From Candidatus Falkowbacteria bacterium RIFOXYC2_FULL_36_12 (GTDB lineage: Bacteria > Patescibacteriota > Patescibacteriia > UBA11705): a stretch of 64,000 nt of DNA. How positions within the stretch are numbered: position 1 is the first letter of the stretch; each line of letters starts with the position of its first letter. A program made the translations under genes and the position numbers. The stretch covers positions 61,313 through 125,312 of the forward strand of contig MFGJ01000008.1 of NCBI GenBank assembly GCA_001778235.1, read 5' to 3'. Positions 22,376 through 58,869 of the stretch are shown piece after piece. The notes below the pieces were generated by a model. The model saw only the letters and a program-made list of their open reading frames with translations. It was not told where the DNA came from and ran no database searches.

Positions 22376-22738
22376 ATAATTTCTTAAGATATAACCACAA
22401 TCTTGAAAGCATTGGGGGCTAAAAATTTTATTTTGTCATCCTGAATCCTGTCTGCCGAAAGGCAGGTTGTTTCAGGATATAACAAAAATAATCAAACTAT
22501 CCCTTTATACTCTGAAATCCATCTTCGTTAAAACTTCGCTGGACAAGCAAGTTCAGAGTGACAAATTTACATGTAGAAACCAAAAATACCAGCTAACCTT
22601 CCTTGTCCGCCCTCATCATGCAGTCAAAACAGAGTCCGAGTGCTTTCTGAACTATAAACTACTCAATACCTTAACTAAATCATTATATCTCATCACTAAT
22701 TTTTGTAACCTTTTGTAATTATTTTGTATTTTTGTAAT
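22376..22738. repeat. Mosaic intergenic repeat region
   Basis: ctgaatcctgtctgccgaaaggcaggttgtttcaggat (compare 41821-41858) and atccctttatactctgaaatccatcttcgttaaaacttcgctggacaagcaagttcagagtgacaaatt (about 70 bp, nearly identical at 55059-55128; reverse complement partly present at 42139-42176). Confidence 0.65.
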
Positions 22739-41591: not shown

Positions 41592-42216
41592 ATAATTTAT
41601 ATTATAAATATTTTTTATCTAAGTTATATTATTCAATTTCTCTCATGATAAAACCACGAACATGACCAAAATCGGAGCTTGCCTGCCGTAATCTTGATGA
41701 AGGCAAGTCTGGGGCGGTAATGCGCGCTACCAACATGGTAATTTGTCACCCTGAACTTGTTTCAGGGTATGATTCTACGCCCCTCACTTCTCACCCCTGA
41801 ACTAAATTCAGGGCAGGCTCTGAATCCTGTCTGCCGAAAGGCAGGTTGGTTCAGGATCTCCCAATTTGTCACCCTGAACTTGATTCAGGGTATGATTCTT
41901 CAAAATTCAAATTAATTTTTCCATTCCTTCCTCTAATGTCAATTCAGGAGACTCTGAAACAAGTTCAGAGTGACGGGACCACACACCACTCGTCATCCTG
42001 AACCCTACACTCGTCATCCTGAACCCTACACTCGTCATCCTGAACTTGTTTCAGGATCTCCGGGTACTGTTTTCAGGATCTCCCACTTGTCACCCTGAAT
42101 TTACTTGTCCATCGACTTGTCCGTCGAAGCTCCCAAAAGAGCGTAGTCGGAAGTTTTAACGAAGATGGATTTCAGGGTATAATTCTTCAAAATTCAAATC
42201 AAAACTTATACCCAAA
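41592..42216. repeat. Dense mosaic of short repeat modules, including a 21-bp tandem repeat
   Basis: Contains cacgaacatga...ggagcttgcctgccgtaatcttgatgaaggcaagtctggggcggtaatgcgcgctaccaacat (module B); gtcaccctgaacttgtttcagggtatgattc twice (module A); tgaatcctgtctgccgaaaggcaggttggttcaggat (module C); a tandem actcgtcatcctgaaccctac x about 2.7 at 41986-42050; and gaagttttaacgaagatggatttcaggg (the reverse complement of the module at 22514 and 55073). Confidence 0.75.
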
Positions 42217-42654: not shown

Positions 42655-43627
42655 AAATTTAATAAAAAAAGACTAAGAATACTTAGTCTTGGGGCCCTTC
42701 TAATCAGCTATCAGGATTACCTGACATCCGAAATTTCAACGAAGGGTGTTTCCACCCAAGTTTCTTGAATTACTCAAATCAATAATCCAAAACACTCAAT
42801 TTCTTCACTTGTTACGCAGTTTAGTTGATCTCTCAATCAATTTTCAAACCACAATAGTCTGAAAAAACAGCTTGGTAGTCTATTCAATCACTGCAATTTT
42901 AGTATAATATTTAATTTTAATCTTGTCAAATTTAACAACATACTTAAAGCATCGAACATGAACATCACGAGAGCCTGTGGGGATTCTGCACATAATCAAT
43001 CCCGTAATCTCAAAAGAACTTGCTTTAGCAAAATCAATCACTAACTTTAAACCCCACGAACCTGACGAACCTCGGGGCTTGCCTGCCGTAATCTTGATGA
43101 AGGCAGGTCTGGGGCGGCAATGCGCGCCACCAACATACTCACTTGTCACCCTGAACTTGTTTCAGGGTATAAACAATTCCTCTCGTGATAAAACCACGAA
43201 CACGGCAAGCCTCGGGGCTTGCCTGCCGTAATCTTGATGAAGGCAGGTCTGGGGGAATTCTGCATATAATCAAAACTTGCGTTAGCAAAACAATCACCTA
43301 ATTTATACCCCACGAATATGAAAAGCATCGGGGTCTGGGGTTTTCGTTGCTGTCATGAGCGCACAAAAGGGTGTTTAAAGGCATTCAATTAGAAAACCCC
43401 AGCGCTTTTGTTTCTTTTGCCTGCCTGCCGGTAGGCAGGGCGTCAAAAGAAATCGCAAAGCGAAATCAATCACTTAATCTCAAAAAAACCTGCTTTAGCA
43501 AAACAACAATTTACATTTAGATTTCATTAGTGGTCACTACATTCATTTGCTTCGCCTTTAAACGCAAACACCAGCTACTCTCTGGTAATTTTTAAAACAA
43601 AAAAGAGCTTTTCAGCTCTTTTTTGTT
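42655..43627. repeat. Large (about 970 bp) gene-free mosaic repeat region
   Basis: Two copies of module B (43071-43110 and 43211-43250, each about 40 bp, flanked by cacgaa..ctcgggg and followed once by gcggcaatgcgcgccaccaacat), module A (43145-43168), aagcatcgaacatgaacatcacgagagcctgtggggattctgcacataatcaat (compare 11400), cttgctttagcaaaa..atcac three times, and gcctgcctgccggtaggcaggg. ORFs here are repeat-derived. Confidence 0.75.
43594..43626 (-). terminator. Bidirectional intrinsic terminator after the 43628..44761 gene
   Basis: The hairpin aaaagagct-tttc-agctctttt flanked by an A-run and a T-run. Confidence 0.6.
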
Positions 43628-47800: not shown

Positions 47801-48340
47801 TGCTAAGTTTGGATGATGCTGAACTTCCAAATAATAATTTCCTTTGCCAAACAACTCTAAATATTTTTCTGCAACTTTTTCTGCTTCTTCGATTGTTCGA
47901 TTCAAAATCGCATTGGCGATTTCTCCTGCTTGACAAGCAGACAAACATATCAATCCTTCTTTATATTTATTTAAAAGTTCCCAATCAATTCTTGGTTTAT
48001 AATAAAATCCTTCAATATGAGCAATTGAAGTCAACTTGATTAAATTCTTATACCCTTGATTATTCTTTGCTAACAAAATTACATGAAATCTTTTTTCTTT
48101 TGATGAATCTTTTACTTTCAAACCATGTTCGGCAATATAGGCTTCCACTCCAATTATTGGTTTTATACCTGCCTTATTACACTTTTGATAAAATTCAATC
48201 ACGCCATACATCACGCCATGATCAGTCAATGCCAAAGCAGGCATACTGTCTTCAGTTGCCTTCTGTACCAAATCATCAATTTTTGCCAAACCATCAAGCA
48301 AACTATAATGACTGTGAACATGTAGGTGTACAAATTTCAT
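44855..48340 (-). CDS. dnaE: DNA polymerase III alpha subunit
   Basis: An N-terminal PHP domain (MKFVHLHVHSHYSLLDG), polymerase core motifs and an OB-fold; 1161 aa. Confidence 0.92.
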   Translation of the reverse strand: MKFVHLHVHSHYSLLDGLAKIDDLVQKATEDSMPALALTDHGVMYGVIEFYQKCNKAGIKPIIGVEAYIAEHGLKVKDSSKEKRFHVILLAKNNQGYKNLIKLTSIAHIEGFYYKPRIDWELLNKYKEGLICLSACQAGEIANAILNRTIEEAEKVAEKYLELFGKGNYYLEVQHHPNLAKQKIVNDAIFKIGKKLDIPIVATNDVHYLNTEDAEAHDILICLQTKKKITDENRMSYLGEDFSMYTSQQMVDNFRANPEVVENTIKVAEMCNVEIKLGEIQLPVFDLPEGRSPFDALVTECKKGMQKRYGFEADKPESDEEKKIVDRMNYELSVIEKTGYAAYFLITQDFITWAKNNNILVGPGRGSAAGSLVAYLTQITNLEPLKYDLLFERFLNPDRVSMPDIDTDFGDVRRVDVIRYVEEKYGKDHVSQIITFGTMAARAAVRDVGRVLDVPYSFCDKVAKLIPMGMTIDTAINQTVELKELYESNSDAKRLLNFSRKLEGVARHSSTHACGVLITPKVLTEYTPIQYSATGENDVVSQYSLHPVEDLGLLKMDFLGLKNLTIIEHALEVIYKIHGKKIDLDNIELDNEKTYKLFQEGKTTGVFQFESSGMKKYLRKLKPTQFEDLVAMVALYRPGPLNSGMVDEFIDRKHGRKEIVFAHKIMEESLKNTYGVIVYQEQVMQLSKDMAGFTGGQADTLRKAMGKKIADLMAKMKVEFVAGCEKNKLPKRLAEDTFASMEKFAEYGFNKSHAACYALISYQTAYLKANYPAEFMASLLTSDQENMDRVAIEIDECKQMGIEVLPPDINESFRTFTVVADSLKTNNPTIRFGLQAIRNFGENIAKVIIKNRREKGVFADFEDLLLRIQSKDFNKKSLEGLAKSGALDNFEERNRILENIDRILLFIKEVERERTTVQTNLFATKGQSGLPKLQLLEIEPATKEQRLSWEKEFLGLYVTEHPFTEFEPYFSDIIVPLHKIVELRNKNGEKQILTAGVITNVHKIITAKGDPMLFVRIENSLFGLEVLIFPKLYQEIGSMLVEEKIIVVNGNLSDKDDDDKILANMVWEVTKDNLQGLLNQIKGFQPRRLEKKNILIDYPKGGSHELAERVKVVFRRFPGTNGLYFKVGDKTIKTNFQVKYCPGFDQAICDLLGKNSVKIKQ

Positions 48341-48548
48341 ATTTGCAAATAAATTACCTTCTTCAACCTACCTCGCCTAATCCGGCTCCGTTCGGTCTAA
48401 TCTCACGGTCGAAGGCTAGACAGAATCTTTATCTTTCTCGCTTCCAATTTTAACACATTTTACCCAGACACTCTAATAACCCAACTATCCCCAACCATTT
48501 TATCTAATTTTAGTCAAAAAAAACACCCCCCTTAAAAAATTAATTTGA

Positions 48549-48577
48549 TTGACAAATTTTATTTTTTATGCTAATTT
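48549..48577 (+). promoter_or_regulatory. Candidate sigma70-type promoter of the ubiquitin-like operon
   Basis: TTGACA at 48549-48554, a 17-nt AT-rich spacer, then TAATTT at 48572-48577. The RBS aaaggagcc precedes the ATG at 48623. Confidence 0.35.
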
Positions 48578-48622
48578 TAGATGAAATGTTCCTTACAACT
48601 AAACCCACAGAAAGGAGCCAAA

Positions 48623-51600
48623 ATGCGCATTCCAGACCTAGATTCCTTGAAATATTTTACTGGTAGCAAAATTAACCGAGAGGTGATTATTCCAAAGACT
48701 GAAATTGATGGCAATAAAATCGGTGATCAATTAATTGCACATCCTTCAAATACTAATTTTCGAGACGATCTCCGTGGTCACATCTATACAATAGTTGCTT
48801 TCACCAATGATACCTATAATAAAATATCTGCAATTATGCAATGTGGCGATTTATTGAATAAATGCTTTACATCAGTAGTTGCTGACCTACATGAAAAACA
48901 TATTAGAATCAGAAGTGGTAACACTTTTTTCAGCCAAAATGGAAATAGCTATATTGCCACAGACTCAACCAATCTAGCTGGTTTTTGCGTCAGAGACGAA
49001 CTAGTATGGAAAAATACAGCTGAAGTACCCCAGTGGTTACTATCACAAGATTTATGGCTTAAAAGAAAAGTTATTGTTGGATTCACAAATAGCGCTGAAG
49101 CAATTGTACAAGTTGATGACAAATATCATACCAAACTGACTCTCGACCAATTAACAAGCTTTAACCGAAAGACAAGTGTAATTAGTAGAAATAAAGAATT
49201 CCACTCAATTAGTAATACAGTAATCACTGTCACCGATACTCTTGAATACGAAGGTTACAAGGTAGGTCAAATACTCACATTAAAGACTGTAGATGCCCAT
49301 CCCCTTGTCAGAAACGCCTCAAAAATTGTTGTTGTTGGTTTTACTTCTATGAACGCTATCGTCAAGCAACTTGATTTAAATCTTTGTGTTTTGGATCATC
49401 TAATGGACACTAATAACTTTTTCCACAACACAGAAATAATCGCCCCAGAATTTCAGCATCTCTATCAAACAACACCAAGGGGAGAAACAGCCATGGACAG
49501 CTACTTCCTGCCAGACATTGTACCAAATCAGCAAAAAATTCTAACAGATAATGAAGTTGATTATACTTACTTTACCAATGTTAGAAATACTCAACTTAAT
49601 ATTGGACATGATGGTATTATCATCAATGATAAGTCTTCACTGGAAATGGCTTGCAACCTCCTAGGAATAATTGTTTCCGCCCAATACCCCACCAACTATG
49701 ACGGCCTGCTATGGTGTAGCTACCACAAAGCCAATGACACTGAATTGGCAACTCAAGTTAACACTCGATCTACCAAAATCAGAAAACACAGCTGGAACAC
49801 TGACACCAATCCATTCATCGCAATTATTCGAGAACACTTATTCCCGTACTTGCCTGAAACGATTGATACAGTCGTCTTGGAAGATGCCAATCATACATAT
49901 CGAGCCCCTACCAACAACAGTACTGAATTCCGCATTTTAAACTGGGCCACACCATCTGAAACTCAACAACTTGAACTCCCATCTCTAATCTTTGCTCGAG
50001 TCAGACCATCCTCAACTTCCTATGCTCAAAGTAATCTTGGTTTCGTCATCAGCTGTCCATATACAAAACACGATGTTGCCGAACTGATCGGAAATGATCT
50101 CTACATTCTATTCGATATTTGTCCACATGGTAGTGCCAATGAACTGGAAATTTTCCAAGAAATTATTATTAGAGTAGCAAAATTCTTGCAAATGCCTGAA
50201 GCAGAACAACGAGCCTATGAAAAAAAACTCTTTGACCGCAATAAAATTGTATTGATAAGTTGGAATAGAACTGGTGATAAAACCGAACAAGCCAAAGTCA
50301 CTGCTTCCCGAGCCTTTCATGAAATCACTGGAAAATTTAGCCAAATTAGAATAACTCCATGCACTAAAGAACAAATACCTCTACAAACAGCACAAAGAGC
50401 TGATCGTCCGGATATTCTATCAATTTATCTCTGGGCAGGTATTTCAGACACTACTCCATCCGTCCCATCTCCCAAAAATATTTTTGGTGTTCAAACTCCC
50501 TATCCAGGTGAAGCAGGCTTTTTTGGTTTTGATGCATCTAACATTAGTTATGTAATTTTTGATGGAGAAACAGCAATCGCTGAAATCCTTGGTAATTCTG
50601 TATATGTTCTTCATTCAATCTTCGCGAAGAATGAACCAAACGAACAAAAACTTTTAGAAATTATTTTTGGTAAAATCGCTGATTTCTACAAACTGTCTGA
50701 AGAAGAACAAAAACAAGCTTATACCGCCCAAGCCCCTATTAGAGATGAAATACAAAAAAAAGCCCAGCAGCTTAAAAAAATACAGATTGTAACCTTTGGC
50801 AACATGCGTGCAACAAAAGCAAAGACTATTGCCACCATCTATGAAGCCTTAATGCCAATTATTGAGAATTACCAGAAAATCAAATTTCACTACGGAAATG
50901 CTAAGACACTTAATAATGATGAAACAACCGCCATAGCCAATTCTGATGGTTGTCTAAACATCTATCTCTGGGCTGGTATTGCTGAATCAAATCCAAATGG
51001 TAAAACCGTCAAATCATTTAAAGAGAAGATGTTTGACATAGCAATCCCCCACTATTCTTCTGAACCTCGCTTCACGCCGTCATACAAAGAATATGTAATT
51101 TTTGATGACGACGAACCCATTGCTGAAATTATCAATGATACGATTATTATTCTAGCTCTAGTTTGTTTTGAAAATGACCCACACGAATATCAGTTACTTT
51201 CTGAAACCCTAAAAAGAGCTACTGCGTATTATGTCCTATCACCTGAACAAAAATCAGCACTTGTAGCTACGCAACGCAAACAAAAAAAATTCCGCTATTT
51301 CAATCTGTCATCATATGACCAGTTTAGGACTCAATTAACTTCTTCAGCCAAAACTCATCTTGTACCATTCCTACCCGACGATATACATATACTCAATTTT
51401 TCCTATGATCAAGTTAAAGTAAAAAATGAACATAAAGCCAAAGCAAAAGAATTTAGTGTCCATCTATACGCTTGCCCAGAAGAACAAATAGCCGACCAAG
51501 TTTATTGCCCGAAAACATTACTTGGGATTGCAGGCACTGATACAGACTACAAAGCTTTCACTCTTGAAGGTGAAAACTTTGCTGTAATAGATGATGATAC

Positions 51601-52426
51601 AAAGTTTATTGTCGCTGAATTAATTGGCAACGATCTCTACATTGGTCTGCCGATTCTACGCTTTCACCATGGTCAGGGCTACTCTACCTCTATCAGCTTG
51701 TGCGAAAAAATATTCCAGCAGATTTCTGTTTTTCTACGAATGACTCCAGAAGAACTAAAACTCTATCACGAAGAAAAACTAAAAAGAAATCGTGATCGTT
51801 ATATCTCTATCACTCTAAAACGGCTTGATACTGAAAGACAAGAACACCTTGATAAAATCAATAAAAATGCCGAAAAAATTCAATCCATGGAAAAAGAACT
51901 GATTGAGCTAAGAAGATCCCAAGCAAAAAGTAGCCGTGAATTACAAATGCTTGATAATGAAAATGATACATTCCGAGCAAAGTTAGCCGAAGAATTTGAT
52001 GCTATTATCAAATTCTCAAAAATTGTTGATATTAAAATTACTTCTGATGGAAATTATCTTGTCTGCACCACAAAAACAATCTATGCACGGCATCCTCAAA
52101 CAAAAAAATATCATCAGATTGGTGCTTTCAAAATCATCATGTCAACTCATGGCAGAATAGACGCAAAAATCGTAACCTTTATTAATCTGACAAAAACCAT
52201 TGTCGGGTATAATGGTGATAATTTTTATGCACCGCATGTCTCGGCCACTGGTCATCCATGTCTTGGAACCATTGAAGGAACTTTACCCCAACTTATTGCC
52301 AGTTATGATTTCAGCGCTGCCATAATTCTCTGTATCGGATTCCTCGAGCAAGTAAACATCCATGACAATTGGGGACGCCATATTGATAAATGGGTACCAA
52401 TCCTTGATCAACTGCCCACCACCTAA
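48623..52426 (+). CDS. Large (about 1267 aa) multidomain protein with a C-terminal E2/UBC-like domain (putative Ubl-conjugating enzyme), an N-terminal unknown region and about 4 internal roughly 160-aa repeat modules
   Basis: The C-terminal roughly 130 aa read ...IVGYNGDNFYAPHVSATGHPCLGTIEGTLPQLIASYDF..., which resembles the UBC active-site region (YHPNI..G.ICLDIL) with a candidate catalytic Cys in HPCLG. Repeated modules carry AE(L/I)(I/L)GN.(L/V)Y(I/V)L ... LSEEEQK / MPEAEQR / LSPEQK / MTPEELK. A coiled coil precedes the E2 part. The start is set at the ATG with an RBS; the track ORF begins 14 codons upstream. Confidence 0.55.
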   Translation: MRIPDLDSLKYFTGSKINREVIIPKTEIDGNKIGDQLIAHPSNTNFRDDLRGHIYTIVAFTNDTYNKISAIMQCGDLLNKCFTSVVADLHEKHIRIRSGNTFFSQNGNSYIATDSTNLAGFCVRDELVWKNTAEVPQWLLSQDLWLKRKVIVGFTNSAEAIVQVDDKYHTKLTLDQLTSFNRKTSVISRNKEFHSISNTVITVTDTLEYEGYKVGQILTLKTVDAHPLVRNASKIVVVGFTSMNAIVKQLDLNLCVLDHLMDTNNFFHNTEIIAPEFQHLYQTTPRGETAMDSYFLPDIVPNQQKILTDNEVDYTYFTNVRNTQLNIGHDGIIINDKSSLEMACNLLGIIVSAQYPTNYDGLLWCSYHKANDTELATQVNTRSTKIRKHSWNTDTNPFIAIIREHLFPYLPETIDTVVLEDANHTYRAPTNNSTEFRILNWATPSETQQLELPSLIFARVRPSSTSYAQSNLGFVISCPYTKHDVAELIGNDLYILFDICPHGSANELEIFQEIIIRVAKFLQMPEAEQRAYEKKLFDRNKIVLISWNRTGDKTEQAKVTASRAFHEITGKFSQIRITPCTKEQIPLQTAQRADRPDILSIYLWAGISDTTPSVPSPKNIFGVQTPYPGEAGFFGFDASNISYVIFDGETAIAEILGNSVYVLHSIFAKNEPNEQKLLEIIFGKIADFYKLSEEEQKQAYTAQAPIRDEIQKKAQQLKKIQIVTFGNMRATKAKTIATIYEALMPIIENYQKIKFHYGNAKTLNNDETTAIANSDGCLNIYLWAGIAESNPNGKTVKSFKEKMFDIAIPHYSSEPRFTPSYKEYVIFDDDEPIAEIINDTIIILALVCFENDPHEYQLLSETLKRATAYYVLSPEQKSALVATQRKQKKFRYFNLSSYDQFRTQLTSSAKTHLVPFLPDDIHILNFSYDQVKVKNEHKAKAKEFSVHLYACPEEQIADQVYCPKTLLGIAGTDTDYKAFTLEGENFAVIDDDTKFIVAELIGNDLYIGLPILRFHHGQGYSTSISLCEKIFQQISVFLRMTPEELKLYHEEKLKRNRDRYISITLKRLDTERQEHLDKINKNAEKIQSMEKELIELRRSQAKSSRELQMLDNENDTFRAKLAEEFDAIIKFSKIVDIKITSDGNYLVCTTKTIYARHPQTKKYHQIGAFKIIMSTHGRIDAKIVTFINLTKTIVGYNGDNFYAPHVSATGHPCLGTIEGTLPQLIASYDFSAAIILCIGFLEQVNIHDNWGRHIDKWVPILDQLPTT

Positions 52427-52443
52427 GGGAGGAGAACATAAAC

Positions 52444-53508
52444 ATGGCTGGAGAAAGCTTCTTTTCCGCAATGATGAAAGCTTTTTGGCTTGGTAGATCA
52501 ACTCCACCAGTACCTGTTCAAAGAAGATTATCAACCAGACAACCAACCTACTTTTCTCCAATTAAAACCTCACCTGAAATTTTTATCTCACAAGAAATCA
52601 TTCCACTAATTCTAATTAGCGCCAAAGCTTATGCCAAAATATGGTATTATATCAGAAGTGCTATGAATTTAAGAGATGAAGAAGTCAGTTGGTTTGGAAC
52701 AGTTGATTGGGACAAAAAAACTCACATCATGACCATTGACGATGTTTTCATTCTGAAACAAAACAATACAACCATGAGTACTTCAATTGCTCCCAATGCC
52801 CTCATTGAATTCTGGCAATCTCAACCTGAAGAAGTTACCGCTCGAATTGCTTTTTGGGGACACTATCACCCACATGGCTGTACAGATCCATCACCAAAGG
52901 ACAATGAACAACTATTAGAATTTGCTGACAACAATGATTTCTTCATTAGAGGGATTTTCACTGCTGATGGCAAACTTTGTTTCACGGTTATGCTGACATA
53001 CGACAATAAACCCAACATCATTGTTATGGATGCTCCATGGGATCATGTTGACCCGAGTAACTTCTTTGACTCATCAGTTCAAACCCAAACTGAAAAAGAC
53101 TTTGCAGATGCAGTAAAAACATTTGTGCCTCCACCCAATCGAAGAAGCCGAACACATCATATTCCTCCAAACGATAGAAGATTTGTTCAGGCAACAGATC
53201 CTATTATTCCACCGTATGCCTCCCAAAATGGAACTCATGATATTAAAGCATACCCACTTGCTGGCACAATTGATCATAGACTAAGCCCAGTTATTCCCAC
53301 TTTACCAAGCGCACCAATCACTCCAACTTTTACTTCACCACAAAGAACCGGCTCTGCGACTATAACATTTACCTCTAAACCATCACTCCCTTCCGAAAAC
53401 CATGAACAACCAGAACCATCTTCACCATCTGACCAAAGTCCAGTTGACACTTCTGAAGCACCCACTTCTGATGAAGATCCAGACACAACCACTCTCGAGG
53501 TAAACTAA
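52444..53508 (+). CDS. JAB/JAMM (MPN+) metallopeptidase with a long Pro/Ser/Thr-rich disordered C-terminal tail
   Basis: The conserved Glu (LRDEEVSW) and the JAMM motif H-x-H-x7-S-x2-D read as HYHPHGCTDPSPKD. The RBS gggaggag is present. The C-terminal roughly 150 aa are low complexity. Confidence 0.7.
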   Translation: MAGESFFSAMMKAFWLGRSTPPVPVQRRLSTRQPTYFSPIKTSPEIFISQEIIPLILISAKAYAKIWYYIRSAMNLRDEEVSWFGTVDWDKKTHIMTIDDVFILKQNNTTMSTSIAPNALIEFWQSQPEEVTARIAFWGHYHPHGCTDPSPKDNEQLLEFADNNDFFIRGIFTADGKLCFTVMLTYDNKPNIIVMDAPWDHVDPSNFFDSSVQTQTEKDFADAVKTFVPPPNRRSRTHHIPPNDRRFVQATDPIIPPYASQNGTHDIKAYPLAGTIDHRLSPVIPTLPSAPITPTFTSPQRTGSATITFTSKPSLPSENHEQPEPSSPSDQSPVDTSEAPTSDEDPDTTTLEVN

Positions 53509-54201
53509 ATGTCAACCACACTAAACGAACATCTCAACCTTGTCAGACATCAACAACTTTTCAATCCTGCTGACTTGGAAGATCAAGAAATTCATGTGAT
53601 TGGTGTTGGAGCTACTGGTTCTAGAATTGCCTTATTGCTTGCCGAACTTGGAATTGAGAATCTACATCTCTGGGACTATGATACTGTTGAAGCCCACAAT
53701 GTACCCAATCAAGCTTATGGTCTGCAACATGTTGGACAATTAAAGGTTGATGCTATGGCTGAAATCATTGGAAGAGACACCAAAGCCAAAGTCATTACCC
53801 ATAATGAAAAAGTTGATGGCACTCAACATTTCGAAGGTTATGTTTTCCTGCTTGTTGATTCACTTGAAGCTAGACGACAAATCTATCAAGGAGCTCTAAA
53901 ACTAAATCCTCATATCCAAGCAATAATTGAAACCAGGATGGGCCCATTTGAAGGCAGAGTTTATATTTTCAAGCCAATCAATGTCAAACATGCTAGACAA
54001 TGGGAAAGGTCTGTCACACCAACAGTCCCTGTCCTTGCTTCAGCCTGTGGTACTGTACCTACACTTGGTAGCACCGCTACTCTGATTGCAGGTATGGCAG
54101 TCAACCAATTCATGCGTTGGACAAAAAACTCACTTGAAGTTGAAAATGAAATGATTTTTGCCACAAATCCATGGACAATCTTGACATTTAATTGGGAATA
54201 G
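53509..54201 (+). CDS. E1-like adenylating enzyme (ThiF/MoeB/HesA family), translationally coupled to the JAB gene
   Basis: A Rossmann glycine loop, VIGVGATGSRIALLLAELG, with the conserved acidic pair (WDYD), a degenerate second motif EAHNVPNQ in place of SNLNRQ, and a candidate catalytic Cys in LASACGT. Its ATG directly abuts the JAB stop (taaatg). Confidence 0.75.
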   Translation: MSTTLNEHLNLVRHQQLFNPADLEDQEIHVIGVGATGSRIALLLAELGIENLHLWDYDTVEAHNVPNQAYGLQHVGQLKVDAMAEIIGRDTKAKVITHNEKVDGTQHFEGYVFLLVDSLEARRQIYQGALKLNPHIQAIIETRMGPFEGRVYIFKPINVKHARQWERSVTPTVPVLASACGTVPTLGSTATLIAGMAVNQFMRWTKNSLEVENEMIFATNPWTILTFNWE

Positions 54202-54276
54202 TTTATACTCATATATCAAACAATCAACTCCTTCAACCACCCCCAAACGCCCTTAACCAAGGGAGGGAGAAACACC

Positions 54277-54666
54277 ATGCCTGACACTAATGATGAGTTG
54301 AAATTCACAATTGGACAAACTCTAAGAGAAATTGCTAGAACTAATGGTCTTATCCCTGAAAACTTCAAATTCTGTGTTAATGGACGCCGAGTAACTCTTG
54401 ATTACAATGTCTTGGAAGGTGATGTTATTTCTGCTGAATCAATTGATGATTCAGTTATCACTGTCCGAGTCCAGAAAATTCCTGGCAAGGCTAACTACTT
54501 TGATCTTCCTCATGGTGCAACCGTAGAACAGGCACTTAATGTTGCCGGATATAGAAACCTCACATCAGAATTTGAAGTCAAACGAGGTACAGAATATGTT
54601 GCCCTCAATGCTGAAGTCTTTCATAGTGACACTATCGTACTAGCAAGACCAACTACTGGTAATTAA
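54277..54666 (+). CDS. Small tandem beta-grasp (ubiquitin-like) protein ending in Gly-Asn
   Basis: A 129-aa protein. Two roughly 60-aa segments each show ThiS/MoaD-like hydrophobic periodicity (KFTIGQTLREIA...VNGRRV...GDVIS and ITVRVQKIPGK...GATVEQAL...EVKRGTEYV...SDTIVLARPTTGN). A strong RBS, gggagggag, is present and it is the last gene before the terminator. The fold is assigned by inference only. Confidence 0.45.
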   Translation: MPDTNDELKFTIGQTLREIARTNGLIPENFKFCVNGRRVTLDYNVLEGDVISAESIDDSVITVRVQKIPGKANYFDLPHGATVEQALNVAGYRNLTSEFEVKRGTEYVALNAEVFHSDTIVLARPTTGN

Positions 54667-54672
54667 AAAAAA

Positions 54673-54701
54673 CTGACTATTTAATACAATAGTCTTTTTT
54701 A
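54673..54701 (+). terminator. Intrinsic terminator of the ubiquitin-like operon
   Basis: The hairpin gactatt-taatac-aatagtc followed by ttttttatttt, 8 nt after the stop. Confidence 0.6.
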
Positions 54702-54789
54702 TTTTCTCATTAATTCAAAATTCATACTATAAATACTTTCTCTCCTTACATTTTTTAATTTATTCACCTTGCAAATCATTTTCCACCGT

Positions 54790-55300
54790 ATTAAGCATTT
54801 ACTTTAATATTAAATCCCACGAACATGATAAGCCTCGGGGCTTGCCTGCCGTAATCTTGATGAAGGCAGGTCTGGGGGCTTTCTTGTCGTCAACACCACC
54901 ACTAAGAAAGCATCAAACATGAACATCTCAGGGGCTTGCCTGCCGTAATCTTGATGAAGGCAGGTCTGGAGCGGCAATGCGCGCTACCAACACGCTCATT
55001 TGTCACCCCTGAAATTAATTCAGGGCAGGCTCTGAATTTATTTCAGGGTATAATCAAGCTATCCCTTTATACTCTGAAATCCATCTTCGTTAAAACTTCG
55101 CTGGACAAGCAAGTTCAGAGTGACAAATTGAAATATATAAACAACAATAACAACTAACGCATCTTGCCCGTCTTCATCGTGAAGTCGAGACAGGCTATGC
55201 TTTCAGGCAGGGTGTCAAAAAAACTTGCTTTAGCAAAATGATAACTTACTTTAGTGAAACTTATCATCTTCTTTAATGTTAAATCCCACGAGCTGTCGCT
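54790..55300. repeat. Mosaic repeat region downstream of the ubiquitin-like operon
   Basis: Two module B copies (54833-54872 and 54932-54971) with cacgaacatga..ctcgggg and aagcatcaaacatgaacatctcagggg leaders; gcggcaatgcgcgctaccaacac; module A variants (cacccctgaaattaattcagggcaggctctgaatttatttcagggtat); a 70-bp copy of atccctttatactctgaaatccatcttcgttaaaacttcgctggacaagcaagttcagagtgacaaatt (identical to 22500-22570); and cttgctttagcaaaatgat. Confidence 0.75.
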
Positions 55301-55366
55301 AGTAATTTATGTTTATAACAAAAAAGTGCACTAAATTTAGTACACAATATTATTTAAACTCTATTC

Positions 55367-56719
55367 CTAATCGTCTCTACGAGAGTTCAGACGAAGTCTC
55401 GCCGTCCCCACACGACCGGACGGCAGTGCCGGCTGATCATTCGAAGGATTCAAAGCCGGTCCACTCACACCACCACCAAGGAGATTACTCTGTGCAGTTC
55501 TGGGTCGAATATCAGTCAAATCACTCTGCAAACTTCTCCAAGGAATGTCCATTGCAGTATAAAGCATAAACATGAGCATTCTTGTTTCCATTTGACTATT
55601 CGGAGGAAACTTGTCCCGATTACGAAGAAGCATAACAGCAGCAGCAAACTGCTTCAACTTCAATTCCATTCTCTCATGTTCCGAAGTCACATCGAGCAGA
55701 CCCCTTTCAACCAACATCAACTTCAATTCATCATCAGTAGTCGCTCCAACCATCAGAGGCAATTCCTTATTCTTCAACAAATTCTTCACATCCACAGATT
55801 CAGCCATCAATTCACGAGGAACTGGAAGAATCGGACCAGCAAACATCTTATTGAAATTCTGATGAGCCACATCAACCGCATCACGCACCATACCAGCGTC
55901 AACAGGTGAAGCAAAACTTACAAGAGAAGCAGTCGCGACAGAATTAGGATTAACCACCTTCTGCATACCAACTTCAATCGCATCATAAAATCTCTGCTGT
56001 CTGAAAACATCCGACGACTCAAACCACTTCTGAATCTGAACTGCAACATTATGCAAGGTTCTCCACAAAAACTTGTCAACTCGCTCATAGAAAACAGCTT
56101 TACGCGCATCATCAACAAAACTTCCATCCTTCGTGATTGCATCCAGAATGTGTCGGTACTGACGCCTTCTAATCTGTCGTTCCAGTGCGTAAAATGCAGG
56201 CTTCGACGGGGAGTCAATTTTCATCTGATGATCAAGCATCATCTTGTGCAAGACTGTTGGAATGCTAAAAAATCCCGTTCTATTAGCAAGTGCAACACTG
56301 ACTGCATAAACAACATCATTTGGCTCAATCAGATCGCGAAGTTCAGTGTCACGCTTCAAAACGCCAACAACAGTGTCATCATCAAAAGCAACATCTCCCA
56401 GCATATCTTCGACCTGAACATCTTCAACTACTTCAGCTTCTTTTTCATCAGCGCCATAAAGCATACCCAGATTCTTACGAAGCACAGCCTTGGGAACAAC
56501 CTTTGTATCAACCAATGCACCACACAAATCACCAAACGGAGCTGACTCTTGAGTCAAGTAATTTACAGCATCATCTTGGTAAATCTGGTCGAGGAAAAGC
56601 GGGTACAGACCATTAGCCAAAGTCTGAACATTCAGATGACATACTTCAGCAAATCTATTCAAACGACTAAGCATACTTTGGTGAAGTCTCTTTAGATCGA
56701 CAGAGACAACTTCGGTCAT
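55367..56719 (-). CDS. Hypothetical protein (451 aa) with G/C-rich codon usage, looking foreign
   Basis: The RBS ggagg lies 7 nt upstream of the ATG at 56717-56719 (MTEVVSVDLKRL...). Third codon positions are rich in G/C, unlike the neighbouring genes. No family recognised. Confidence 0.5.
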   Translation of the reverse strand: MTEVVSVDLKRLHQSMLSRLNRFAEVCHLNVQTLANGLYPLFLDQIYQDDAVNYLTQESAPFGDLCGALVDTKVVPKAVLRKNLGMLYGADEKEAEVVEDVQVEDMLGDVAFDDDTVVGVLKRDTELRDLIEPNDVVYAVSVALANRTGFFSIPTVLHKMMLDHQMKIDSPSKPAFYALERQIRRRQYRHILDAITKDGSFVDDARKAVFYERVDKFLWRTLHNVAVQIQKWFESSDVFRQQRFYDAIEVGMQKVVNPNSVATASLVSFASPVDAGMVRDAVDVAHQNFNKMFAGPILPVPRELMAESVDVKNLLKNKELPLMVGATTDDELKLMLVERGLLDVTSEHERMELKLKQFAAAVMLLRNRDKFPPNSQMETRMLMFMLYTAMDIPWRSLQSDLTDIRPRTAQSNLLGGGVSGPALNPSNDQPALPSGRVGTARLRLNSRRDD

Positions 56720-56889
56720 GACACACCTCCACACACCCTCCGCTGTCACCCCAGCGGGCAAGGTTCGCAGGTCCGCCTTGGCCTGCAAGTCTATTTTATT
56801 TAATTGTAATGACCTTCGCAGAAACCATAATTTACCAAAACTTTTCAACTTTGTCAAACAAATCACATGTTAAACAATTTTCTTCTATT

Positions 56890-58869
56890 TTAGTCAAAAA
56901 GCAAGTTAAACAACTCATCCATCTTTAGCTTACCATCATACACTAAACCCTGTCGAGAACCTGTTTGTGTAAAACTCTTTATATTTTGTTTAAATTGAAA
57001 ATTTAGGCTAATTTTCCACTCTTTTACCCCAGCCTGCTTCTGAATAAGTAGTTTATAATCCTTGTCCCGACTTGCTTCATAAACCGCTTTTGGTAGTTTA
57101 TATTTAATTACAATAGTTTTACTCTGTTTTGGTTCAACTTCAAAGAAAAAACCATAGGCTGATTTATTAAATTCCTTATAAAAATCAACTTCTTCATTTT
57201 TAACTACATCATTGCCTATTTTCAACTCTACAAGTTCACTGCCTTCTGGCACATATACTCGTGTATAACTACGATACCTTGTTGTGCGATAATCAAAAAA
57301 ACCATTATTAATATAAGTCAATTTCAATTCACTTGTATAGCCATTACCACTTTCCGATAATTTATAACTCATTTCTCTGTTCATCACTCTGTCAGTTTTT
57401 AGAGCTGCCAAATTTGCATCTACCACCATCAGATAGTCATCAGGAGTATATTCAATTTTTCCCGCCCATTTTTTTTCTTCAAAATATTTTTGCAAAGTTG
57501 TATCCTTGACATAAATCTGTATAAACTTTTCCTTCATATTTCTGGTAACAACATCAAACAGTTCTTCAAATCTATTTAACGGCAAATTAAACAATCTATT
57601 CTCGAGCTCTTTTGACAATTTGCCAATAATATCTTTTCTGTCACCTTCAGCATCTCCACCTTTTTCAAAATATGCTACTTCCACTTGATACTGCAATTCA
57701 TCTGTAAAATTTTCTTTGGAAAAAGTAACTCCGTCAATGGTTATATTACCAACTAAAGCAATTAGATCTTCTACTAGATTCGGATTGATTGCAATCACGC
57801 CATCAATATTTGCTTCAGGACCTCCCTCAAGATGATAAAACTGTTCAATCTTCTCGGCAGAAGTAGGAAAATCAGACCACCAATTTGCGTCTCGCATAAA
57901 CCATTCTGACATACCAAGATATTTTTTTATTGGTTCAGGTGGAACAGCTAAATTTTTATCTTTTATCTTTACATCCAGATTGTAAATATTATCAGTAGTA
58001 AAACTTTTCAAATCACCATTTTTTACTTTCATGATTCCATAAGTACCGATAAATCCTCCACTTGGACGAAGTTCATCATTATTTTGCAAAATAAATAAAT
58101 ATTTTTTCTCTTGGTCAAGCCCAACAAGGCTTGGCATAACATCTGAAACAGTCGTAAAGGCTTCAAAACCTTTTAACATTGACGGCACAATACTTACCAC
58201 CGCATCTTCAACCGGATCCCAAAAACCATATTTACCCTTACCAATAAAATTCGTATAGGCACTATCAATCTGATCAATTTCTACTTGTGAATGTTTTATC
58301 AGATCACCTATTTCCACTAACTTCTTCAAAATTTGGCTTCTTTCAGCTTCACTAATTTCTGAAAAACTTTTATTACTGGTCTGCCAATCAGCCAAGACAT
58401 TTTCACTTATAGAAAAAATTTCATTGGCTATCTTTGTGGCGTTTGAACCAATAACAATCAGATCTTCAGCCAAATCAACTTCTTTTTTAACAATCGGCAA
58501 ATTGAAAACTGCTTTTTGTTTTAATATTTGTAATTCTTGTTCAGCCGAAAACAAATTATTATTGGCGACTTCCAATCTTTCTTTGGCCGTCTTATAATCC
58601 TTTTGCTCCAAATACTGGGCAAATGCCTGCAGATTGTCTCTCGCATCCAAAACTTCAGCTGTAACTAACTGTATTGAATTCAAATACGGCAATGTTGACA
58701 AACCAAGCAATATTACTACAAGTAAAACCCCAGCCAAAATTAATCCAATAATCTGTGGCAAGAAATGCAATGGCAACAAAAAAAATCTGCTCCAATGAGG
58801 TTTTTCTTGATCCTCTAGTTGCTTTTTTTCAATAAAATTTTGTTTATTAAAACCCTCCATGTATTTCAA
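56890..58869 (-). CDS. DUF4012-domain protein (associated with cell-surface polysaccharide biosynthesis)
   Basis: An N-terminal transmembrane helix and a large domain with LRPSGGFIGTYG, characteristic of DUF4012. It lies next to GT2 genes. Confidence 0.65.
   Translation of the reverse strand: MKYMEGFNKQNFIEKKQLEDQEKPHWSRFFLLPLHFLPQIIGLILAGVLLVVILLGLSTLPYLNSIQLVTAEVLDARDNLQAFAQYLEQKDYKTAKERLEVANNNLFSAEQELQILKQKAVFNLPIVKKEVDLAEDLIVIGSNATKIANEIFSISENVLADWQTSNKSFSEISEAERSQILKKLVEIGDLIKHSQVEIDQIDSAYTNFIGKGKYGFWDPVEDAVVSIVPSMLKGFEAFTTVSDVMPSLVGLDQEKKYLFILQNNDELRPSGGFIGTYGIMKVKNGDLKSFTTDNIYNLDVKIKDKNLAVPPEPIKKYLGMSEWFMRDANWWSDFPTSAEKIEQFYHLEGGPEANIDGVIAINPNLVEDLIALVGNITIDGVTFSKENFTDELQYQVEVAYFEKGGDAEGDRKDIIGKLSKELENRLFNLPLNRFEELFDVVTRNMKEKFIQIYVKDTTLQKYFEEKKWAGKIEYTPDDYLMVVDANLAALKTDRVMNREMSYKLSESGNGYTSELKLTYINNGFFDYRTTRYRSYTRVYVPEGSELVELKIGNDVVKNEEVDFYKEFNKSAYGFFFEVEPKQSKTIVIKYKLPKAVYEASRDKDYKLLIQKQAGVKEWKISLNFQFKQNIKSFTQTGSRQGLVYDGKLKMDELFNLLFD

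What the first reader, a model, noticed from the sequence alone, without database searches (positions are those of the whole stretch)
48549..54702. Four-gene ubiquitin-like conjugation (Bil/Bub-like) island: giant E2-fusion, JAB peptidase, E1-like and tandem beta-grasp Ubl
I see a self-contained plus-strand operon with its own promoter and terminator, embedded in an otherwise minus-strand housekeeping region. By my own reading of the translations it encodes (1) a 1267-aa protein whose last roughly 130 aa resemble a UBC/E2 fold (..YAPHVSATGHPCLGT.. mirrors the eukaryotic HPN...ICL active-site region); (2) a JAMM metallopeptidase (HYHPHGCTDPSPKD = HxHx7Sx2D); (3) a minimal ThiF-family E1 (GVGATGS Rossmann loop, candidate catalytic Cys in LASACGT) translationally coupled to the JAB gene (taaATG); and (4) a small protein made of two ubiquitin-like beta-grasp halves ending ...TTGN. 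Established knowledge: E1/E2/JAB/Ubl operons in bacteria (Iyer-Burroughs-Aravind predictions; BilABCD and Bub antiphage systems) conjugate a Ubl to targets such as phage tail proteins. Inference: this is a divergent member of that class. Its E2 is fused to about 1100 aa of unknown repeat modules, the JAB carries a roughly 150-aa Pro/Ser/Thr-rich tail, and the Ubl is a tandem beta-grasp protein with a Gly-Asn C-terminus that the JAB enzyme could trim to expose the Gly. The operon looks richer in G/C at codon third positions than the surrounding host genes, and mosaic repeat clusters flank it on both sides. Together these are consistent with horizontal acquisition as a defence island.
Basis: partly seen in the sequence, partly recalled or inferred. 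Interest (0 to 1): 0.93.

Follow-up and report, generated by a model that had tools for sequence, protein, structure and literature searches.

The report
Undescribed phage-linked ubiquitin-like conjugation operon
A candidate-phylum bacterium carries a four-gene operon for a ubiquitin-like tag, its activating enzyme, a giant conjugating enzyme and a trimming protease; it belongs to a large, apparently undescribed family found mostly in uncultivated phages.

Summary
The four plus-strand genes are real and sit in a Candidatus Falkowbacteria chromosome. All four predicted roles held up.

- **E1:** CDS3 is a minimal ThiF-type E1. Its only cysteine is invariant in the family.
- **JAB:** CDS2 is a JAMM protease with a complete active site. 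Its family profile matches Rpn11.
- **Ubl:** CDS4 is a truncated plus a complete SAMP/ThiS-like beta-grasp domain.

It is not a Bil, Bub or CBASS member. Defining features of each were tested and not met. The same E2-like/JAB/E1/Ubl module recurs in about 160 fetched loci, mostly viral contigs, Patescibacteria and Melainabacteria. The E2-like protein has 1561 relatives among 50%-identity cluster representatives and no Pfam model. Most family Ubls end in Gly-Asn.

- GC3 is not elevated.
- The flanking repeats are a genome-wide element and lie only downstream.
- Nothing in the context marks a defence island.

The most likely mechanism is a JAB-primed E1-to-E2 thioester cascade. The target and biological role are unknown.

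The parts
48549..48577 (+). Promoter-like site: TTGACA, 17-nt spacer, TG-extended TAATTT
   Evidence: Read directly from the sequence. The consensus scan did not list it. Transcription from here would exclude the ATG at 48581.
48623..52426 (+). CDS1, 1267 aa (1281 aa if started at 48581): giant E2-like protein
   Evidence: ORF. AAAGGAG RBS before 48623. The gene was called with 1267 or 1281 aa in the other assemblies of the same organism shown. It has 1561 relatives among 50%-identity cluster representatives.
48623..49492 (+). CDS1 residues 1-290: N-terminal region without detectable relatives
   Evidence: jackhmmer against 150 family representatives found only itself.
49490..51790 (+). CDS1 residues 290-1056: four copies of 'module A' (290-540, 546-700, 715-883, 894-1056)
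   Evidence: jackhmmer domain hits, E from 1e-78 to 3e-20. Of 148 representatives hit, 102 have one copy, and it lies N-terminal to the E2-like domain. The AF2 model of copy 4 is an alpha/beta domain (helix, 7 strands, helix). Its fold could not be assigned.
51746..51958 (+). CDS1 residues 1042-1112: single long helix (coiled-coil-like)
51959..52423 (+). CDS1 residues 1113-1267: UBC/E2-like domain. His1205 is at 52235-52237 and candidate catalytic Cys1213 at 52259-52261
52444..53508 (+). CDS2, 354 aa: JAB/JAMM metalloprotease (core about residues 30-215) with a Pro/Ser/Thr-rich tail. The HxHx7Sx2D motif is at 52861-52902
   Evidence: Glu80, His140, His142, Ser150 and Asp153 are invariant in 43 sequences. 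The family profile matches Rpn11 at 5e-9, and also BRCC36, CSN5 and archaeal JAMM1. 29 of 43 relatives match Pfam Prok-JAB. The window protein alone gives only a weak PADLOC JAB hit, 0.0035.
53509..54201 (+). CDS3, 230 aa: minimal single-domain ThiF-type E1. GVGATGS is at 53602-53622, Asp117 is conserved, and Cys180 (its only cysteine) is at 54046-54048
   Evidence: Pfam ThiF 1e-20. PDB matches to MoeB 5e-5 and UBA5 1.5e-4. S178, C180, G181, D117 and the glycine loop are invariant in 30 sequences.
54277..54666 (+). CDS4, 129 aa: ubiquitin-like protein. A truncated beta-grasp (residues 7-51) is followed by a complete beta-grasp (61-129) ending Gly128-Asn129 (54658-54663)
   Evidence: A family HMM built without this organism gives domain 1 E 1e-7 and domain 2 E 3e-20. 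The family profile matches SAMP2 at 2e-5, and also PF1061, ThiS, MoaD and TtuB. 107 of 130 distinct relatives end in GN or GN plus 1-4 residues.
54676..54702 (+). Terminator-like hairpin (GACTATT / AATAGTC) followed by a T-run
   Evidence: Read from the sequence. It is too AT-rich for the scan's rule and was not listed.
54797..55147 (.). Mosaic of dispersed intergenic repeats, including two copies of a 36-nt hairpin element. This is not specific to the operon
   Evidence: The same elements occur at 22441-22585, 41634-42202 and 43034-43458.
55367..56866 (-). 499-aa orphan ORF convergent with the operon, inside the same GC-rich segment. Whether it belongs to the system is unknown
   Evidence: ORF. 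GC3 0.40, z = 4.7. No Pfam, PADLOC, NCBIfam, PHROG, PDB or viral-contig relative. Absent from all related loci.

Best explanation
The locus is an intact four-gene operon encoding a ubiquitin-like protein conjugation cascade.

Shown here:
- The parts are a beta-grasp Ubl, a minimal ThiF/MoeB/UBA5-like E1, a JAMM protease, and a 1267-aa protein whose C-terminal domain has a UBC (E2) fold.
- All catalytic residues are present.
- These four gene families travel together in many genomes.

Inferred mechanism:
1. The JAB protease removes Asn129 of the Ubl and exposes Gly128. In relatives it would also cut poly-Ubl precursors and longer tails.
2. The E1, probably a homodimer like MoeB and UBA5, adenylates Gly128 and takes the Ubl as a thioester on Cys180.
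3. The Ubl passes to Cys1213 of the E2-like domain. His1205, eight residues upstream, would play the part of the HPN histidine of canonical E2s.
4. The giant E2-like protein transfers the Ubl to target lysines without an E3. It probably dimerises through its 70-residue helix, and its four 'module A' copies and unique N-terminus probably choose the targets.
5. JAB can also reverse the modification.

The system belongs to a large family distinct from Bil, Bub and type II CBASS. That family is carried mainly by uncultivated phages and by Patescibacteria and Melainabacteria. The copy here is most likely an old, silent-site-ameliorated acquisition of a mobile, phage-linked module that acts in phage-host or inter-element conflict. 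Its direction (defence, exclusion or phage takeover) and its targets are unknown.
For: - **Gene set and motifs:**
- **E1:** Pfam ThiF 1e-20. It matches MoeB and UBA5 in PDB. The adenylation residues and its single Cys are invariant.
- **JAB:** the active site is invariant, and the profile matches Rpn11 at 5e-9.
- **Ubl:** the profile matches SAMP2, ThiS and MoaD. It has two domains. The penultimate Gly is conserved, and there are poly-Ubl precursors whose repeats each end in KGN, so a processing protease is required.
- **Linkage:** E2-like/JAB/E1/Ubl occur in the same order in 48 loci and permuted in most of the others, out of about 160.
- **Family size:** 1561 representatives.
- **Viral setting:** 131 confirmed matches on IMG/VR contigs. 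Their neighbours match DnaB, primase, Sak4, RecJ and SbcC PHROGs.
- **Precedent for a one-residue cap removed by JAB:** PMC10557695.
Against: - There is no biochemical evidence.
- The Ubl structure could not be predicted with an alignment.
- The near-invariant Asn after the Gly is not explained by a simple cap model.
- The E1 has no zinc site, no ubiquitin-fold domain and no separate Cys domain, so how it recruits the E2 is unknown.
- The module A fold and function are unresolved.
- No defence genes, prophage genes or target candidates flank the operon.
- All assemblies of this organism are near-identical, so selection on this particular copy cannot be measured.
Confidence: 0.65

Rival explanations
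1. It is a true member of the Bil (BilABCD) or Bub antiphage families. It would defend the cell by tagging phage structural proteins.
For: It has the same four functional roles as Bil (PMC11601596). A JAB-removed C-terminal cap is known in Bil. Tandem beta-grasp Ubls occur in Bil and Bub.
Against: - The E1 is a 230-aa single domain, not IAD-AAD-CYS.
- The E2-like domain has the His upstream of the Cys, unlike the Bil/6d type, which lacks the classical His and carries a conserved His C-terminal to the Cys.
- E1 and E2 keep cysteines, unlike Bub, and there is no DUF6527 protease.
- PADLOC, Pfam and NCBIfam give no Bil, Bub or Prok-E2 hits.
- PDB searches find MoeB/UBA5, Rpn11 and SAMP2 rather than Bil, Bub or Cap proteins.
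- Relatives are mostly on viral contigs.
Confidence: 0.1
2. It is a sulfur-carrier system of the ThiS/ThiF, MoaD/MoeB or CysO/Mec+ kind. The E1 would make a Ubl thiocarboxylate, JAB would trim the carrier, and the E2-like protein would be a non-catalytic scaffold.
For: The best NCBIfam and Pfam hits of the E1 are ThiF and MoeB models. The Ubl profile matches ThiS, MoaD and TtuB. JAB plus E1 plus carrier triads exist in sulfur pathways (Iyer et al. 2006, PMC1779556).
Against: - All NCBIfam scores are far below the equivalog cut-offs, for example 66.8 against 159.
- No thiamin, molybdopterin, cysteine or rhodanese genes are nearby, here or in related loci.
- The E2-like domain, with its conserved His and Cys, is obligatorily linked to the other genes.
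- Poly-Ubl precursors and frequent phage carriage do not fit cofactor synthesis.
Confidence: 0.07
3. The terminal Asn is kept and is chemically essential. As with microcin C7 MccA/MccB or pantocin PaaP/PaaA, the E1-like enzyme would act on a C-terminal Asn (succinimide or phosphoramidate chemistry), giving a non-canonical Ubl adduct.
For: Asn follows the Gly in about 82% of 130 distinct family Ubls, and 66 end exactly at GN. PaaA is among the PDB hits of the E1. That MccB acts on a C-terminal Asn is from my own knowledge and was not tested here.
Against: - 41 Ubls carry 1-4 residues after GN, and internal repeats of poly-Ubls also end in GN, so a cut is needed anyway.
- Variants ending GA or GG exist, while the Gly is the better conserved position.
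- The E1 lacks an MccB-like N-terminal peptide clamp; it is only 230 aa.
- The conserved Cys residues in the E1 and E2-like proteins fit a thioester relay.
Confidence: 0.08
4. It is an inert remnant of a phage or mobile element with no present function in this bacterium.
For: The 8.3-kb segment differs in composition from its surroundings. No functional partners are nearby. The family is largely phage-borne.
Against: - All four reading frames are intact, with every catalytic residue.
- The operon keeps promoter-like, RBS and terminator-like signals.
- GC3 is host-like, implying long residence without decay.
- The small genomes of this bacterial group rarely keep 6 kb of useless coding DNA. This point is general knowledge.
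Confidence: 0.07

Closest known systems
BilABCD (Bil, formerly CEHH/6C-6d operons), a bacterial ISG15-like antiphage conjugation system
   Same: It has four separate proteins with the same roles: Ubl, E2, JAB deubiquitinase and E1. JAB pre-processes a Ubl whose reactive Gly is capped by one residue. The E2 probably dimerises and picks targets without an E3. Some Ubls have tandem beta-grasp domains (PMC10557695, PMC11601596).
   Different: The E1 here is a 230-aa single adenylation domain with its Cys in the body of the domain. It does not have the IAD-AAD-CYS architecture and has no zinc site. [quoted passage not shown] There is no detectable sequence relationship. The family Ubl terminus is Gly-Asn, and the family is largely carried by phages.
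Bub (6E/DUF6527) operons
   Same: An E1, E2, Ubl and often JAB gene set. The Ubls have one to three beta-grasp domains.
   Different: Bub works through oxyesters (E1 Tyr, E2 Ser), uses fused proteins (Ubl-E2 with JAB-E1, or E2-E1), and has a DUF6527 serine protease (PMC11601596). Here both cysteines are conserved, the genes are separate, and no DUF6527 protein is present.
Type II CBASS Cap2/Cap3
   Same: It uses E1, E2 and JAB chemistry. The Rossmann part of the E1 gives weak PADLOC 'E1-E2' hits, about 4e-14 over some 70 residues.
   Different: Cap2 is an E2-E1 fusion whose substrate is the CD-NTase itself. Here there is no CD-NTase and no effector, and a dedicated Ubl is present.
Archaeal SAMP / UbaA / JAMM1 and eukaryotic UBA5-UFC1-UFM1
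   Same: The closest sequence matches come from these systems: the Ubl profile to SAMP2, the JAB profile to Rpn11 and JAMM1, and the E1 to MoeB and UBA5. All use a minimal homodimer-type E1 without a separate Cys domain.
   Different: SAMP systems have no E2. UFC1 and canonical E2s are small free-standing proteins. Here the E2-like domain ends a 1267-aa multi-module protein, and the Ubl ends Gly-Asn rather than Gly-Gly.
Canonical eukaryotic UBC E2 enzymes (UBE2S, UBE2C, UBE2D2, UBE2T, Ubc13)
   Different: Sequence identity is only 11-20%, with no HPN tripeptide (the motif here is APHV). No profile-level match exists. The domain is fused to large N-terminal regions.

Membership tests
ThiF/MoeB/E1 adenylyltransferase superfamily (CDS3) | Rossmann fold with a glycine-rich ATP loop and a match to the ThiF family model | tested here: met
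   Pfam PF00899 at 1e-20 and 74.4 bits against a cut-off of 28.1. GVGATGS and Asp117 are invariant in 30 relatives.
ThiF/MoeB sulfur-carrier equivalogs (cofactor biosynthesis) | A score above the NCBIfam equivalog cut-offs and a thiamin or molybdopterin gene context | tested here: not met
   The best score is 66.8 bits against a cut-off of 159 (PRK08644), and all others are further below. No cofactor genes are in the window or in related loci.
UBC/E2 fold (CDS1 C-terminus) | A helix, a four-strand antiparallel meander, an active-site loop and C-terminal helices, with structural similarity to solved E2s | tested here: met
UBC/E2 fold (CDS1 C-terminus) | A conserved catalytic Cys in the loop after strand 4 | tested here: met
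   Cys1213 is invariant in alignments A2 and A4. 184 of 217 family domains have the Cys. Its superposition on the E2 catalytic Cys was inferred from the order of secondary structure, not from coordinates.
Known E2 sequence families (Pfam UQ_con, Prok-E2_A to E, UFC1, Atg3/10) | A match to the family profile | tested here: not met
   None of 37 diverse members hits any of these models at E <= 1. The PDB profile search finds nothing.
JAB/JAMM/MPN+ metalloproteases (CDS2) | An upstream Glu plus HxHx7Sx2D, and a family profile match | tested here: met
   Glu80, His140, His142, Ser150 and Asp153 are invariant. The profile matches Rpn11 at 5e-9. 29 of 43 relatives hit Pfam Prok-JAB. The window protein alone does not pass Pfam.
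Beta-grasp ThiS/MoaD/SAMP-like Ubl (CDS4) | A profile relationship to known beta-grasp modifiers and a C-terminal Gly tail | tested here: met
   The family profile matches SAMP2 at 2e-5, PF1061 at 6e-5, ThiS at 0.02 and MoaD at 0.03. Gly128 is conserved. No 3-D model could be made with an alignment.
Bil (BilABCD) | [quoted passage not shown] | tested here: not met
   CDS3 is 230 aa with one ThiF domain covering residues 22-208. The definition comes from PMC10557695.
Bil (BilABCD) | A Bil/6d-type E2: no classical His upstream of the Cys, and a conserved His C-terminal to the Cys | tested here: not met
   The family motif is APHVxxxGxxCLGN, with the conserved His 8 residues before the Cys. The definition comes from PMC1779556.
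Bub (6E/DUF6527) | E1 and E2 without catalytic cysteines (oxyester relay), a DUF6527 protease, and fused Ubl-E2, JAB-E1 or E2-E1 genes | tested here: not met
   E1 Cys180 and E2-like Cys1213 are conserved. There is no DUF6527 hit. The four genes are separate. The definition comes from PMC11601596.
Type II CBASS (Cap2/Cap3) | A CD-NTase and an effector together with an E2-E1 fusion | tested here: not met
   No CD-NTase or effector model matched. Only the Rossmann segment of the E1 hits the PADLOC E1-E2 models.
Functional Ubl conjugation cascade | Thioester intermediates on E1 and E2, and isopeptide-linked targets | not testable with these tools
   This needs co-expression, non-reducing gels and mass spectrometry.

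The most novel reading that the evidence does not exclude
This operon may be the chromosomal representative of a very large, previously undescribed family of complete E1-E2-deubiquitinase-Ubl systems. Its main carriers would be uncultivated bacteriophages. It would combine a eukaryote-like E2 active site (His...Cys) and an Rpn11-like JAB with a signature Gly-Asn Ubl terminus. In that reading prokaryotic viruses widely encode their own ubiquitin-like conjugation machinery, to modify host or phage proteins, rather than only being its targets. In Melainabacteria and cyanobacteria a variant is coupled to a ClpB-like unfoldase, which hints at tag-directed unfolding or degradation.
Probability: 0.4. 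Interest if true: 0.88.

Novelty: new variant of a known kind. Interest (0 to 1): 0.72.

Why it matters
Three kinds of bacterial ubiquitin-like conjugation system have been characterised: type II CBASS, Bil and Bub. All are treated as host defences.

This locus points to a fourth lineage that appears more abundant. The E2-like protein has 1561 relatives among 50%-identity cluster representatives, and no Pfam model covers either it or the Ubl.

The lineage is concentrated in phage genomes and in candidate-phyla and non-photosynthetic cyanobacterial lineages. If phages themselves use E1-E2-DUB-Ubl machinery, the picture of who uses ubiquitin-like tagging in phage-host conflict changes.

The lineage also combines a minimal E1, a UBC fold with a His upstream of the Cys, an Rpn11-type JAB and polyubiquitin-like precursors. 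That makes it relevant to how eukaryotic ubiquitin signalling arose. The proteins are small enough, apart from the N-terminus of CDS1, for direct biochemical reconstitution.

Tried and rejected
- **Word-indexed homologue searches** with CDS1 and with the Ubl found only the same organism. Relatives appeared only through the exhaustive search and through E1-anchored locus fetching.
- **Single-sequence Pfam, NCBIfam, PHROG and PDB searches** of CDS1, JAB and Ubl gave nothing significant. PADLOC gave only a weak JAB hit, 0.0035.
- **The AlphaFold-database fold library** was unavailable.
- **Selection analysis (dN/dS)** across assemblies was impossible because the population is essentially clonal, with one substitution in 9.4 kb.
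- **Deposited phage genomes and plasmids** do not contain the E2-like domain by tblastn. Distant E1 relatives in Xanthomonas and Erwinia jumbo phages lack the other three parts.
- **The 499-aa neighbour** has no detectable relatives anywhere searched.
- **Rfam** found no RNA family in 48000-57000.
- **The GC3 island idea** was rejected.
- **The idea that the repeats mark the island borders** was rejected.
- **A 28-nt imperfect direct repeat** brackets the GC-rich segment. It has a core of only 14 exact bases in AT-rich DNA and was not taken as evidence of insertion.
- **Literature searches** found no description of this family. The library is incomplete, so prior description cannot be excluded.

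Full report
**What is there**

The window is from a Candidatus Falkowbacteria (candidate phyla radiation) genome. CDS1 and the Ubl match NCBI records from RIFOXY Falkowbacteria bins, and the locus was recovered with the same neighbours on 23 contigs from many samples.

Four plus-strand ORFs lie at 48581/48623-52426, 52444-53508, 53509-54201 and 54277-54666. Upstream is minus-strand dnaE. Downstream are a minus-strand 499-aa orphan ORF, a DUF4012 gene and glycosyltransferase genes.

- An AAAGGAG site six bases before the ATG at 48623 favours the 1267-aa form of CDS1.
- A TTGACA / TG-TAATTT promoter-like site (48549-48577) and an AT-rich hairpin followed by a T-run (54676-54702) are visible. Both are too weak for the consensus scan.
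- The JAB stop codon abuts the E1 start codon.

**The E1**

- CDS3 matches Pfam ThiF at 1e-20. It matches MoeB, UBA5 and UBA3 in PDB.
- Every NCBIfam thiamin or molybdopterin model scores far below its cut-off.
- About 190 proteins of 225-260 aa share 40-48% identity with it. In 30 of them the glycine loop, Asp117 and the S-x-C-G motif are invariant.
- Cys180 is the only cysteine in the protein. There is therefore no zinc site and no separate Cys domain.
- Cys180 lies 63 residues after Asp117. MoeB has a similar spacing between Asp130 and Cys187; this comparison is from my own knowledge.

**The E2-like domain**

- CDS1 had no word-indexed relatives. The exhaustive search found 1561 cluster representatives at E <= 0.001 and 694 at E <= 1e-10. 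The conserved part is the last 320 residues or so.
- An alignment of 37 C-terminal domains shows an invariant Cys in the motif APHVxxxGxxCLGN and a near-invariant His.
- No Pfam model and no PDB sequence profile matches the domain.
- AlphaFold2 on this alignment gave pLDDT 90.7 and pTM 0.85. The topology is a helix, four strands, a loop, then three helices.
- Foldseek agrees, with weak statistics: all top hits are E2s, best E 4e-3, TM about 0.5.
- Across 217 family domains in the fetched loci, 159 keep both His and Cys. Nearly every locus with an aligned domain keeps at least one such copy, and second paralogues often lose one or both, like UEV partners of E2s.
- I take this as good evidence for a catalytic UBC-like domain that is distant from all described E2 families.

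**The rest of CDS1**

- Residues 1-290 have no relatives.
- Residues 290-1056 are four copies of a 'module A'. Of 148 family representatives hit, 102 have it once, and it lies N-terminal to the E2-like domain.
- A model of residues 886-1267 (pLDDT 86.6) shows module A as an alpha/beta domain. It is joined to the E2-like domain by a single 70-residue helix.
- The fold of module A could not be assigned.
- By analogy with BilB and large E3-independent E2s, I infer that these parts dimerise the protein and select targets.

**The JAB protease**

- On its own CDS2 gives only a weak PADLOC hit.
- In an alignment with 42 relatives, Glu80, His140, His142, Ser150 and Asp153 are invariant.
- The family profile matches Rpn11 (5e-9), BRCC36, CSN5 and archaeal JAMM1. 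29 of 43 relatives hit Pfam Prok-JAB.
- Residues from about 205 to 354 are Pro/Ser/Thr-rich.

**The Ubl**

- A family HMM built without this organism finds two domains in CDS4. One is truncated (residues 7-51, E 1e-7) and lacks the first strand and the tail. The other is complete (61-129, E 3e-20).
- The family profile matches SAMP2 (2e-5), PF1061, ThiS, MoaD and TtuB.
- Of 130 distinct family Ubls, 66 end exactly in Gly-Asn and 41 in Gly-Asn plus one to four residues.
- 25 of these proteins have two or three repeats, and 26 of 32 internal repeats also end in (K/R)GN. These are polyubiquitin-like precursors that need a protease.
- Rare variants end in GA or GG, and the Gly is the better conserved position. 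This favours Gly as the reactive end, with Asn as a preferred residue after the cut, as with Ala98 of E. aridi BilA.
- Why Asn is so strongly kept remains unexplained.

**Linkage and distribution**

- Scans anchored on the E1 returned 80 loci from species-representative genomes and 79 from IMG/VR.
- The four families co-occur almost everywhere. The order E2-like/JAB/E1/Ubl is found in 48 loci, and permutations occur in most of the others. Some viral contigs carry two modules side by side.
- The genomes are mostly Patescibacteria, Saccharibacteria and Melainabacteria/Obscuribacterales, with scattered others.
- Viral contigs reach 100-200 kb. Their neighbouring genes match phage DnaB, primase, Sak4, RecJ-like and SbcC families.
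- In 24 genome loci, mostly Melainabacteria, Obscuribacterales and cyanobacteria, a ClpB-like AAA+ gene directly follows the module.
- Deposited phage genomes and plasmids lack the E2-like domain.

**Composition and borders**

- The segment 48581-56866 has GC 0.392. Other windows of the same size have 0.343 +/- 0.007, with a maximum of 0.357.
- GC3 of the four genes is host-like (z from -0.8 to +1.0). The excess sits in codon positions 1 and 2 and in the 499-aa ORF, whose GC3 z is 4.7.
- This fits an old acquisition, or simply proteins of unusual composition. It does not fit a recent island.
- The high C and low G at third positions reflects the strong strand skew, which other plus-strand genes share.
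- The downstream repeats are copies of a dispersed intergenic mosaic and are not island borders.

**Comparison with known systems**

- The functional logic is that of Bil: Ubl, E2, JAB and E1 with no E3.
- Defining features of Bil (an IAD-AAD-CYS E1 and a CEHH-type E2), of Bub (an oxyester relay, DUF6527 and fused genes) and of type II CBASS (a CD-NTase and an E2-E1 fusion) were each tested and not met.
- The nearest sequence relatives of the parts are MoeB/UBA5, Rpn11/JAMM1 and SAMP2. The nearest structures to the E2-like domain are eukaryotic UBCs.
- I found no paper describing this family. The library is incomplete.

**Verdict**

The family assignment, the GC3 argument, the repeat borders and the defence-island inference are not. 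The locus is best described as a new variant of the bacterial and phage ubiquitin-like conjugation kind. It belongs to a large phage-linked family whose targets and biological role remain open.

Noticed in passing
window 41677-41712, 43077-43112, 43217-43252, 54840-54875, 54934-54969; wider mosaics at 22441-22585, 41634-42202, 43034-43458, 54797-55147: A 36-nt hairpin-containing element (GCTTGCCTGCCGTAATCTTGATGAAGGCAGGTCTGG) occurs five times, always on the plus strand. It sits in intergenic mosaics built from several other short repeated modules, which looks like a REP- or MITE-like dispersed repeat system of this genome. No Rfam family matched in 48000-57000.
   Followed up: partly
window 54822-54969; loci L004 and L007: The 94-nt unit carrying the hairpin element is present twice in the window and in most assemblies, but only once in two other assemblies of the same organism. 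This is either copy-number variation or assembly collapse.
   Followed up: partly
window 55367-56866 (minus strand): A 499-aa orphan ORF is convergent with the operon. Its GC is 0.44 and its GC3 0.40 (z = 4.7), the most atypical gene in the window. It has no relatives in any library searched and is absent from all related loci.
   Followed up: yes
window 48493-48520 and 56873-56900: An imperfect 28-nt direct repeat (23 of 28, core ATTTTAGTCAAAAA) brackets exactly the GC-rich 8.4-kb segment that holds the operon and the orphan ORF. It could be an old insertion scar or a chance match in AT-rich DNA.
   Followed up: partly
loci L012, L018, L019, L023, L024, L026, L028, L032 and 16 more (genome contigs): In Melainabacteria, Obscuribacterales and cyanobacterial versions of the module, a ClpB-like double-AAA+ protein of about 800 aa lies directly next to the E1 (median gap 65 nt). 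This suggests a link between the tag and an unfoldase.
   Followed up: partly
loci L099, L115, L028, L032, L033, L026 (three repeats); L117, L136, L104, L034 and others (two repeats): These loci encode polyubiquitin-like precursors: head-to-tail beta-grasp repeats, each ending in (K/R)GN and separated by short linkers.
   Followed up: partly
two-E2-like loci such as L012-L013, L019, L042-L045, L056-L059: Many modules carry a second, shorter E2-like paralogue in which the His, the Cys or both are replaced. This resembles the inactive UEV partners of eukaryotic E2s.
   Followed up: partly
loci L094-L098, L102, L137 (viral contigs): Some viral contigs carry two complete or nearly complete modules next to each other, with clearly different Ubl, E2-like and JAB proteins.
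   Followed up: no
locus L173 (Xanthomonas phage PhiXhv-12, 143445-144128) and related jumbo phages: Cultured Xanthomonas and Erwinia jumbo phages encode a distant relative of the E1 (26% identity), annotated as a 'thiamine biosynthesis protein', next to topoisomerase genes. The neighbouring genes are not E2-like, JAB or Ubl family members.
   Followed up: yes
whole window: GC skew is strongly and uniformly negative (-0.1 to -0.45), and nearly all genes are on the minus strand. The few plus-strand genes have C far above G at third codon positions. The window therefore lies within a single replichore with marked strand asymmetry.
   Followed up: partly
alignment A2 column at CDS1 residue 1155: A second cysteine (consensus LYCxDPRT, on strand 2 of the E2-like domain) is conserved in at least 90% of relatives but is Ala in the window protein.
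   Followed up: no
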